Shown: piece after piece, positions 1-207 of the stretch | Numbering within the stretch: position 1 is the stretch's first letter | Layout of the letters: every line of letters starts with the position of its first letter | NCBI RefSeq assembly: GCF_003334335.1 | Contig: NZ_QOWQ01000244.1 | Source: Escherichia coli | Lineage (GTDB): Bacteria > Pseudomonadota > Gammaproteobacteria > Enterobacterales > Enterobacteriaceae | Length of the DNA: 207 bases | Reading direction: 5' to 3' (one strand) | The notes under the pieces: model-generated | Databases searched by the model: none | The model's input: the letters and a program-made list of their open reading frames with translations, nothing else | What the model was told of the DNA's origin: nothing | Translations under genes and position numbers: made by a program

Positions 1-135
1 GCTGGCTCCAAGTGAAAACAGCATCGTGGTGGCAGAAAAACCACCGGCTGCCAGGGCTGAACCCCATAACGCCATCGAGGCTCCGGCCGTGATGAACGAC
101 CCCACGATGGCCGCCGCCCCCAGCACAATCTGCAG
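1..135 (-). other. Predicted membrane-embedded region of the encoded protein (window residues 25-69); about two helix-lengths, possibly a helical hairpin or a helix plus re-entrant segment
   Basis: 45 consecutive residues without D/E/K/R/H: LQIVLGAAAIVGSFITAGASMALWGSALAAGGFSATTMLFSLGAS. Small-residue motifs recur (GAAAIVG, AGASMALWG, AAGGF), and W-G-S at residues 48-50 is a possible turn or interface. Helix boundaries are not computed; this is by-eye hydropathy. Confidence 0.5.
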
Positions 136-207
136 TCCGCCCTTTCCGGCACCGGCCAGTCGCGGCACAATGTGGATGACCGTTCCCTCACCCAGCTGTT
201 CGTGAAG
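1..207 (-). CDS. Partial CDS (internal fragment, truncated at both window edges) encoding an integral membrane protein, probably a transporter/permease; family not resolved
   Basis: Seen in sequence: minus-strand frame (first codon at + 205-207, last at + 1-3) is open for all 69 codons. Translation: LHEQLGEGTVIHIVPRLAGAGKGGLQIVLGAAAIVGSFITAGASMALWGSALAAGGFSATTMLFSLGAS. Residues 25-69 contain no charged residue and are dominated by small and aliphatic residues. Codon usage looks genuine: Leu is CTG in 6 of 9 codons, Ala is GCC in 9 of 13, and third-position GC is about 67% (46/69). The two in-frame Met codons (+ 73-75 and + 22-24) sit inside the hydrophobic stretch and are not plausible starts. 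Inference: membrane protein, likely a transporter, from composition only. Confidence 0.75.
136..207 (-). other. Polar, glycine-rich extramembrane loop of the encoded protein (window residues 1-24)
   Basis: Translation LHEQLGEGTVIHIVPRLAGAGKGG carries all the charged residues in the window (H, E, E, H, R, K) and a Gly-rich stretch, AGAGKGG, immediately before the hydrophobic region. This is consistent with a loop connecting transmembrane helices; which side of the membrane it faces cannot be determined here. Confidence 0.4.

What the first reader, a model, noticed from the sequence alone, without database searches (positions are those of the whole stretch)
136..165. Gly-rich loop PRLAGAGKGG at the membrane boundary
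A flexible Gly-rich loop with one Lys and one Arg sits directly before the hydrophobic core. Loops like this at helix ends can act as hinges or contribute to anion or substrate coordination. It is not a Walker A motif (see rejected items). Functional relevance is speculative.
Basis: inference. Interest (0 to 1): 0.2.

Follow-up and report, generated by a model that had tools for sequence, protein, structure and literature searches.

The report
Ubiquitin-like tail of phage gpI
The Gly-rich stretch is the C-terminal tail and linker of the ubiquitin-like domain of a lambda-type phage tail-tip protein (gpI), most likely where the neighbouring gpK peptidase cuts that domain off during tail assembly; this was predicted in 2006 and reported as shown in a 2025 conference talk, so it is ordinary.

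Summary
Window 136-165, minus strand, encodes PRLAGAGKGG, followed by a hydrophobic Gly/Ala-rich segment. The protein is not a transporter-type membrane protein. The window is residues 78-146 of a 226-aa homolog of phage lambda tail tip assembly protein I (gpI), 100% identical to Escherichia phage PhiR5_1. The motif sits between the last strand of gpI's N-terminal ubiquitin-like beta-grasp domain and hydrophobic helix H1. P92 is invariant, G96 is 97% conserved and position 97 is small (A/S/G). R93, G98, K99 and G100 vary, and the spacer varies by up to 9 residues. The conserved P-x-x-x-G-[small] aligns with the C-terminal ...G-G of MoaD and ubiquitin. The upstream gene K carries an intact JAMM/JAB metalloprotease motif here and in four other diverse loci. 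Best reading: a ubiquitin-style tail that the gpK JAB domain cleaves (my inference: after A97), followed by a flexible spacer. This was predicted by Iyer et al. 2006 and reported for lambda in a 2025 Davidson-lab talk. Already known; low interest.

The parts
148..207 (-). C-terminal part (aa 78-97) of the ubiquitin-like beta-grasp domain of the gpI homolog. The last beta-strand V87-P92 is window 163-180.
   Evidence: Pfam Lambda_tail_I PF06805 covers aa 15-97, E=1.6e-16. The AF2 model has strand E87-92 and pLDDT 96-98 over aa 11-90. Foldseek best matches are MoaD, SAMP1, CysO, ThiS, Urm1 and ubiquitin.
148..165 (-). Ub-like C-terminal tail P92-R-L-A-G96-A97. The family consensus is P-x-phi-x-G-[A/S/G] at fixed spacing. 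The predicted gpK (JAB) scissile bond is after A97, between window bases 148 and 147 (inference).
   Evidence: P92 74/74, G96 73/75, position 97 A54/S11/G4. hhalign places G96 on the penultimate Gly of MoaD (G80 of 81) and of ubiquitin (G75 of 76). Weak HMM hits to ThiS/MoaD chains end at residue 89 of 90 and 73 of 74 at this profile position.
136..147 (-). Variable Gly/basic spacer G98-K-G-G101 between the Ub-like tail and helix H1.
   Evidence: The stretch from after G96 to before the Q103 column is 5-14 residues long, 64/73 contain K or R, and mean Gly fraction is 0.35. Even close enterobacterial homologs vary: GAGKGG, GAKSGG, GAKNGG, GAGGNGG and one deletion.
1..135 (-). Hydrophobic Gly/Ala-rich helices (aa 102-146): H1 and the start of H2 of the gpI structural part. 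G107 is invariant.
   Evidence: Hydropathy. AF2 helices 97-129 and 134-156 at low pLDDT. Aligns to lambda gpI 102-145. Lambda H1/H2 are described as predicted transmembrane helices that surround the gpH C-terminus in the closed tip.

Best explanation
The window encodes residues 78-146 of a lambda-type tail tip assembly protein I (gpI). PRLAGAGKGG (aa 92-101) has two parts. P92-R-L-A-G96-A97 is the extended C-terminal tail of gpI's N-terminal ubiquitin-like (MoaD/ThiS/SAMP-type beta-grasp) domain, equivalent to ubiquitin's L-R-L-R-G-G. G98-K-G-G101 is a flexible spacer of variable length that joins it to the hydrophobic helices H1/H2 and the C-terminal plug domain, which stay in the virion's tail tip. 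The gene immediately upstream, K, encodes a JAMM/JAB metallopeptidase fused to an NlpC/P60 domain. [quoted passage not shown] That releases the Ub-like domain and leaves mature gpI, starting near G98, in the tail tip. This serves as an assembly checkpoint. Shown here: the identity of the protein, the fold (on a predicted model), the conservation pattern, the alignment register with Ub/MoaD termini, and the intact JAMM motif next door. Taken from the literature: that cleavage happens in lambda. Inferred: that it happens in this phage, and that the bond is A97|G98.
For: Identity: 100% DNA match to the phage PhiR5_1 'tail tip assembly protein I' in an M-L-K-I-J gene order. The full-length 226-aa ORF aligns to lambda gpI 1-223 at E=7e-96. 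Pfam Lambda_tail_I covers aa 15-97. Fold: the AF2 model has a beta-grasp at 14-92 with pLDDT 96-98, the last strand ends at P92, and residues 93-96 are coil. Foldseek top hits are MoaD 6jc0_A (target TM-score 0.73), SAMP1, CysO, ThiS, Urm1 and ubiquitin. Conservation: P92 invariant, G96 73/75, a small residue at 97 in 69/75, fixed P-to-G spacing, and a variable spacer. Register: G96 aligns with the penultimate Gly of MoaD and ubiquitin (consistent with the hit coordinates). Peptidase partner: K has Prok-JAB (E=7e-15) and NlpC/P60 domains and an intact H68-S-H-x7-S-x2-D81 motif. The same motif is present in the K genes of all 5 diverse loci whose N-terminus is on the contig. The K JAB region weakly resembles the desampylase model, well below its curated cut-off (28.2 vs 130 bits). 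Literature: Iyer et al. 2006 predicted JAB cleavage at the C-terminal-most glycine of the gpI Ub domain (PMC1779556). A 2025 Davidson-lab talk reports that gpK cleaves the Ub-like domain from gpI's structural domain after gpI joins the tip complex (PMC12908700). Lambda cryo-EM resolves gpI only from residue 101 or 134/135. The F-pyocin homolog PA0640 is seen only from residue 127 and its authors consider cleavage. The single gpI peptide found by mass spectrometry in lambda virions (9.87% coverage) can only be the C-terminal tryptic peptide 202-223, and none of four well-sized N-terminal tryptic peptides was reported.
Against: No cleavage data exist for this phage. The lambda result is known to me only from a conference summary that does not give the cleavage site. 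An unresolved N-terminus in cryo-EM is equally explained by flexibility. One peptide from a protein present at 3 copies per virion is weak evidence. The hhalign matches are weak (probability 38% for MoaD, 0.8% for ubiquitin). The second tail residue is usually Ala, not Gly, and two homologs lack G96 (A or V) yet keep a JAB-bearing K. I could not model the K-I complex with coordinates.
Confidence: 0.75

Rival explanations
1. Cleavage occurs at the second Gly pair (after G100, or at G100/G101) rather than after A97. The GKGG spacer would then be part of the released Ub-like tail, making a true ...G-G C-terminus.
For: G101 is conserved in 64/72 homologs. A G-G end is the canonical ubiquitin/SAMP terminus. 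The lambda closed-state model begins at residue 101.
Against: The G100 column is a gap in 24/75 homologs and the spacer length varies from 5 to 14 residues, so this pair lies at no fixed distance from the last beta-strand. The fixed-distance G96-[small] is what aligns with the MoaD and ubiquitin termini. If residue 101 is modelled in mature tails, cleavage after G101 is excluded.
Confidence: 0.15
2. There is no proteolysis in this phage. The segment is only a flexible hinge that tethers a chaperone-like Ub-like domain to the plug domain, and that domain stays attached but disordered in the virion.
For: The cryo-EM papers describe the N-terminus as 'unresolved' rather than absent. Gly-rich composition alone is not statistically unusual in this protein.
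Against: A pure hinge does not need an invariant Pro and a 97% conserved Gly at fixed spacing. An intact JAMM peptidase is encoded next door in all 5 loci checked. The conference report describes gpK-dependent cleavage in lambda. Only a C-terminal peptide was detected in virions.
Confidence: 0.08
3. One reading: a juxtamembrane loop whose Arg/Lys and Gly residues coordinate an anion or substrate, or set membrane topology (positive-inside), in an integral membrane protein.
For: A hydrophobic segment follows directly. Lambda H1/H2 are predicted transmembrane helices and are proposed to insert into the host outer membrane on infection. 64/73 homologs have a K or R in the spacer.
Against: R93 is conserved in only 14/75 and K99 in 24/75. 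There is no Pfam, NCBIfam or PDB similarity to transporters or nucleotide- or anion-binding proteins. In the assembled virion the helices are in the tail lumen, not in a membrane.
Confidence: 0.02

Closest known systems
Bacteriophage lambda tail tip assembly protein I (gpI; Pfam PF06805 Lambda_tail_I; PDB 8IYK/8IYL/8K35/8XCG/9E7M)
   Same: Colinear over the full length at E=7e-96. Same M-L-K-I-J gene order and the same 103-nt K/I overlap. The equivalent motif is at the same residue numbers: lambda P92-R-V-A-G-A-K-S-G-G101.
   Different: The spacer is GKGG instead of KSGG, so the Lys is shifted by one position. There is one residue fewer before Q103 and a 2-residue insertion in the H1-H2 loop. 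No experimental data exist for this phage.
Ubiquitin-like beta-grasp sulfur carriers and modifiers with a C-terminal Gly-Gly (MoaD, ThiS, CysO, archaeal SAMP1, Urm1, ubiquitin) and their JAMM peptidases (HvJAMM1 desampylase, Mec+, Rpn11/AMSH)
   Same: Predicted beta-grasp fold. A tail of the same length after the last strand with Gly at the penultimate position. A JAMM/JAB peptidase with an intact H-x-H-x7-S-x2-D motif encoded next to it.
   Different: The tail usually ends G-A, not G-G. The domain is an N-terminal fusion to a structural protein, not a free modifier. No E1- or E2-like gene is annotated in the 12.2-kb PhiR5_1 stretch examined, so conjugation or thiocarboxylation is not expected. 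Sequence similarity to MoaD and ubiquitin is below significance.
gpI homologs of phage T1 (gp34, PDB 9L9P) and the Pseudomonas F-pyocin plug protein PA0640 (PDB 25VF)
   Same: Same architecture and tail motif: IVP-IPTGS-KTGG-LFQVVLG in T1 and IVP-LVIGS-KQSG-LF in PA0640. The N-terminus of PA0640 is absent from the map, and its authors raise cleavage as one explanation.
   Different: More distant relatives (E=1e-20 and 8e-14). The small residue is Ser rather than Ala.

Membership tests
Lambda gpI / Lambda_tail_I (PF06805) tail tip assembly protein I | Significant match of the N-terminal domain to the Pfam model | tested here: met
   PF06805, E=1.6e-16, residues 15-97, model positions 3-83 of 83.
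Lambda gpI / Lambda_tail_I (PF06805) tail tip assembly protein I | Full-length colinearity with lambda gpI, including the hydrophobic helices and the C-terminal plug/beta-strand domain | tested here: met
   phmmer 1-224 vs 8iyk_I 1-223, E=7e-96. Residues 137-223 match 9e7m chains at E=4e-39.
Lambda gpI / Lambda_tail_I (PF06805) tail tip assembly protein I | Position in the tail-tip gene cluster between K (JAB+NlpC/P60) and J | tested here: met
   The PhiR5_1 annotation gives M, L, K, I, J in order. The same order is seen in L002 and L009.
Ubiquitin-like beta-grasp (ThiS/MoaD/SAMP/Urm1/Ub) domains | Beta-grasp fold | tested here: met
   Tested on a predicted model only. AF2 pLDDT is 96-98 for residues 11-90. 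Foldseek vs PDB gives MoaD, SAMP1, CysO, ThiS, Urm1 and ubiquitin at probability 0.96-1.00, with target TM-scores up to 0.74.
Ubiquitin-like beta-grasp (ThiS/MoaD/SAMP/Urm1/Ub) domains | Conserved Gly(-Gly) at the end of an extended tail a fixed distance after the last strand | tested here: met
   G96 73/75, position 97 A/S/G 69/75, and P92-to-G96 spacing invariant. The register with the MoaD and ubiquitin termini comes, which are weak alignments. The terminal residue is mostly Ala, not Gly.
Ubiquitin-like beta-grasp (ThiS/MoaD/SAMP/Urm1/Ub) domains | A free C-terminus that is adenylated, thiocarboxylated or conjugated by an E1-like enzyme | not tested
   No E1-like gene is annotated in the 12.2-kb PhiR5_1 stretch, but I did not search for one. 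The chemistry is not testable with these tools. I describe the domain as Ub-like in fold and tail, not as a modifier.
JAMM/JAB peptidase plus Ub-like substrate pair (phage TAPK-TAPI system of Iyer et al. 2006) | Adjacent gene encoding a JAB domain with an intact metal-binding and catalytic motif | tested here: met
   Prok-JAB PF14464, E=7e-15. HSHPGGLPWLSEAD at residues 68-81 with an upstream Glu19. The motif is present in 5/5 K genes with a complete N-terminus.
JAMM/JAB peptidase plus Ub-like substrate pair (phage TAPK-TAPI system of Iyer et al. 2006) | Actual K-dependent cleavage of I at the Ub-like tail | not testable with these tools
   Only literature is available: the prediction in PMC1779556 and a conference summary of experiments on lambda in PMC12908700.
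Walker A / P-loop NTPase | [AG]-x4-G-K-[ST] in a strand-loop-helix of an NTPase fold | tested here: not met
   G98-K99 is followed by G100, and the preceding spacing does not fit (sequence). There is no NTPase family in Pfam or NCBIfam. The fold is a beta-grasp.
Integral membrane protein juxtamembrane loop | Flanks a membrane-embedded helix in the functional state | tested here: inconclusive
   The hydrophobic segment is real. In the virion it is in the tail lumen. Insertion into the host outer membrane after receptor binding is a published hypothesis.

The most novel reading that the evidence does not exclude
The exact scissile bond is A97|G98 (lambda A97|K98). This would make gpI a natural linear Ub-fusion substrate whose tail ends in Gly-Ala rather than Gly-Gly. 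The variable Gly/Lys spacer would be a tuned P' tether whose length lets gpK reach the bond only once H1/H2 are docked in the tail tip, acting as a length-encoded assembly checkpoint. The frequent Lys/Arg just after the bond would mimic the isopeptide-linked lysine that JAMM enzymes normally see.
Probability: 0.3. Interest if true: 0.3.

Novelty: already known. Interest (0 to 1): 0.12.

Why it matters
It matters little beyond correct annotation. The segment is a textbook-sized example of a prokaryotic/viral ubiquitin-like domain with its own deubiquitinase-type peptidase, used as a tail-assembly checkpoint. The conservation table here (invariant Pro, near-invariant Gly, small residue, then a variable spacer) narrows where the cut should be. 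It could guide mutagenesis in lambda, in Stx-converting prophages and in F-type pyocins. It also flags that many database entries for gene I, and the lambda reference entry for gene K, are truncated in ways that hide the Ub-like and JAB domains.

Tried and rejected
1. Walker A/P-loop: rejected on sequence and fold.
2. An RNA element in the window on either strand: no Rfam match at E<=1.
3. The plus-strand ORF 26..205 (59 aa): treated as an antisense shadow ORF. Homology and codon-position bias support the minus frame.
4. The search for related loci with the diverse alignment A1 failed because no stretch was conserved enough. I sampled neighbourhoods with the look-up of encoding contigs instead. 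Three of the seven contigs were too short to show the N-terminus of K.
5. NCBIfam has no model for gpI.
6. I looked for a full paper or preprint on gpK-gpI cleavage and found only the conference summary. One of these searches failed on a term-length limit.
7. I considered modelling a K-I fusion with the second structure job. I did not run it because the tool returns no coordinates, so the distance from the zinc site to the bond could not be read.
8. I looked for a locus with a JAB-less K, to test whether the tail motif decays without the peptidase. The one candidate, where only NlpC/P60 was on record (L009), turned out to have an intact JAMM motif.

Full report
**What is in the window**

The minus strand, frame 0, is open across all 207 bases and reads LHEQLGEGTVIHIVPRLAGAGKGGLQIVLGAAAIVGSFITAGASMALWGSALAAGGFSATTMLFSLGAS.

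The DNA is 100% identical to Escherichia phage PhiR5_1 (PV340545.1), inside the CDS 'tail tip assembly protein I'. It is 80-96% identical to the remaining 129 phage records, mostly Stx-converting phages. It also occurs in 1763 of 5426 complete E. coli genomes, at up to 11 places per genome.

The peptide matches PHROG tail-protein families (best E=5e-24) and lambda gpI in PDB 8IYK at E=5e-19. Against lambda, 41 of 66 nucleotide differences fall on the third codon position of this frame. No Rfam family matches either strand. The 59-aa plus-strand ORF has no support.

**The gene and its neighbours**

In PhiR5_1 the gene order is V-G-T-H-M-L-K-I-J-lom. The ORF containing the window runs from an ATG at L001:5770 to 6450, 226 aa. 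It aligns with lambda gpI from Met1 to the end: 1-224 vs 1-223, E=7e-96. The window is residues 78-146 and the motif is residues 92-101.

Pfam places the Lambda_tail_I domain at residues 15-97, so the motif straddles the domain's C-terminal edge.

The upstream gene K (247 aa) has a Prok-JAB domain (residues 3-105) and an NlpC/P60 domain (111-224). It carries an intact JAMM motif, H68-S-H70-x7-S78-x2-D81, and an upstream Glu19.

**Structure**

I ran AlphaFold2 with 73 homologs. It gives a confident beta-grasp domain (residues 14-92, pLDDT 96-98) whose last strand is V87-P92. Residues R93-G96 are coil. Two long helices follow (97-129 and 134-156) with pLDDT of only 50-70.

Foldseek against the PDB returns MoaD (6jc0_A, target TM-score 0.73), SAMP1, CysO, ThiS, Urm1 and many ubiquitin chains. 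The N-terminal domain is therefore ubiquitin-like on a predicted model. This agrees with Iyer, Burroughs and Aravind 2006 (PMC1779556).

A search of 1.8 billion cluster representatives found 3222 relatives. I aligned 74 near-full-length ones that are 31-56% identical to the query.

| Position | Result in homologs |
|---|---|
| P92 | 74/74 |
| R93 | 14/75 (Val is commonest) |
| G96 | 73/75 |
| 97 | A54, S11, G4, R5 |
| G98 | G37, K26 |
| K99 | K24, R14, S10, N8 |
| G100 | 26, with 24 gaps |
| G101 | 64/72 |
| G107 | 75/75 |

- The distance from P92 to G96 never varies.
- The span from P92 to G107 ranges from 15 to 24 residues.
- 64/73 spacers contain a K or R.
- Close enterobacterial homologs also keep P-R-x-x-G-A/S but change the spacer: GAGKGG, GAKSGG, GAKNGG, GAGGNGG, and one deletion.

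The first half is a fixed motif, phi-H-phi-phi-P-x-phi-x-G-[small]. The second half is a variable Gly/basic spacer.

**What the fixed half corresponds to**

- Profile-profile alignment of the N-terminal domain alignment (A2) with E. coli MoaD puts 'hIvPvv~G' on MoaD 73-AFFPPVTG-80 of 81.
- With ubiquitin it falls on 68-HLVLRLRG-75 of 76.
- Weak HMM hits to ThiS/MoaD chains in the PDB end at residue 89 of 90 and 73 of 74 at the same profile position.

All three still give one register: G96 is the penultimate Gly and residue 97 is the terminal Gly of the Ub/MoaD tail. So P-R-L-A-G-A is the counterpart of ubiquitin's L-R-L-R-G-G.

**Mechanism**

Iyer et al. 2006 noted the conserved C-terminal glycine of the gpI Ub-like domain, the Gly-rich linker and the adjacent JAB peptidase. 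They proposed that the JAB domain releases the Ub-like domain by cutting at that glycine.

[quoted passage not shown] It also states that this occurs only after gpI has engaged other tail-tip proteins (PMC12908700). I found no full paper.

Several observations fit this:

- Lambda gpI is resolved only from residue 101 (PMC11101478), residue 135 (PMC10721106) or residue 134 (PMC12617516).
- The F-pyocin homolog PA0640 is visible only from residue 127, and its authors raise cleavage.
- Mass spectrometry of lambda virions found one gpI peptide at 9.87% coverage. By in-silico digestion this can only be the C-terminal peptide 202-223.
- In five diverse loci, including two whose gpI lacks G96, the K gene retains the JAMM motif.

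I therefore read the motif as the gpK-JAB recognition tail and cleavage site plus a flexible P'-side spacer. From the alignment register I infer that the bond is A97|G98. The alternative, a cut at the second Gly pair, is less likely because that pair is at no fixed distance from the domain and is often absent.

**The 'membrane boundary' idea**

The following segment is indeed very hydrophobic. It corresponds to lambda helices H1/H2, which are predicted transmembrane helices. In the closed virion they line the tail-tip lumen around the tape-measure C-terminus. They are hypothesised to enter the host outer membrane after LamB binding. Nothing supports anion or substrate coordination.

**Novelty and verdict**

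The protein family, the Ub-like domain, the conserved glycine, the Gly-rich linker and the JAB-mediated cleavage are all in the literature. This window is an ordinary member, with the motif at the same residue numbers as lambda's. The only increments here are the per-position conservation table, the register argument for the exact bond, and some annotation errors noticed on the way. I rate it already known, with low interest.

Noticed in passing
L001:5770-5872 (PhiR5_1, PV340545.1 40480-40582); outside the window: Gene I is annotated from a GTG at L001:5869 (193 aa). The ORF from the ATG at 5770 (226 aa) aligns with lambda gpI from Met1. The annotated start removes 33 residues, including the first strand of the Ub-like domain. 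Many RefSeq E. coli 'tail assembly protein' clusters are likewise 190-210 aa.
   Followed up: yes
L006:1134-1280 (lambda NC_001416 about 14133-14279): In the lambda reference (J02459/NC_001416), K is annotated as 199 aa. The first 48 or so residues of its JAB domain (MTQTESAIL...GEPEA) lie upstream in another frame, separated by a 1-nt gap (GAGGC-TAT vs GAGGCGTAT). Most re-sequenced lambda derivatives (KT232076, LC730321, DE3, imm21, imm434, HK629/630) match 202 bases for the 201-base query, so they carry one extra base. That points to an error or strain-specific deletion in the reference that hides the JAB domain.
   Followed up: partly
L001:5770-5872 and L006:1774-1876: Genes K and I overlap by 103 nt in different frames in both PhiR5_1 and lambda. 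That is an unusually long, conserved overlap. The databases also hold NlpC/P60-gpI fusion proteins (P0007, P0017, P0077, P0087, P0092) and L-I fusions (P0006, P0105), which may be frameshift artefacts within such overlaps or real fusions as noted by Iyer et al..
   Followed up: no
L001:1522-4094: The tape measure gene H of PhiR5_1 is annotated as two adjacent CDSs (1522-3855 and 3855-4094). This suggests a stop or frameshift near the C-terminal region. In lambda that region is cleaved off as gpHC and binds the gpI trimer.
   Followed up: no
gpI homolog residues 208-224 (L001 about 6391-6441); outside the window: A second Gly run, DEGGGGKVVVIGR, lies near the C-terminus (lambda: DEGDGGQVVVIGR). 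It is the only other cluster of at least 4 Gly per 10 residues in the protein.
   Followed up: no
literature, PMC11101478 discussion: Ge et al. 2024 speculate that the unresolved N-terminal part of gpI might be the missing peptidoglycan-cleaving enzyme. The predicted fold of that part is a ubiquitin-like beta-grasp with no hydrolase similarity. The NlpC/P60 domain is in gpK.
   Followed up: partly
window 1-207 in E. coli genomes: The segment occurs at up to 11 places per genome (median 1) in 1763 of 5426 complete E. coli genomes. This reflects multiple lambdoid prophages per strain, especially in O157:H7.
   Followed up: no
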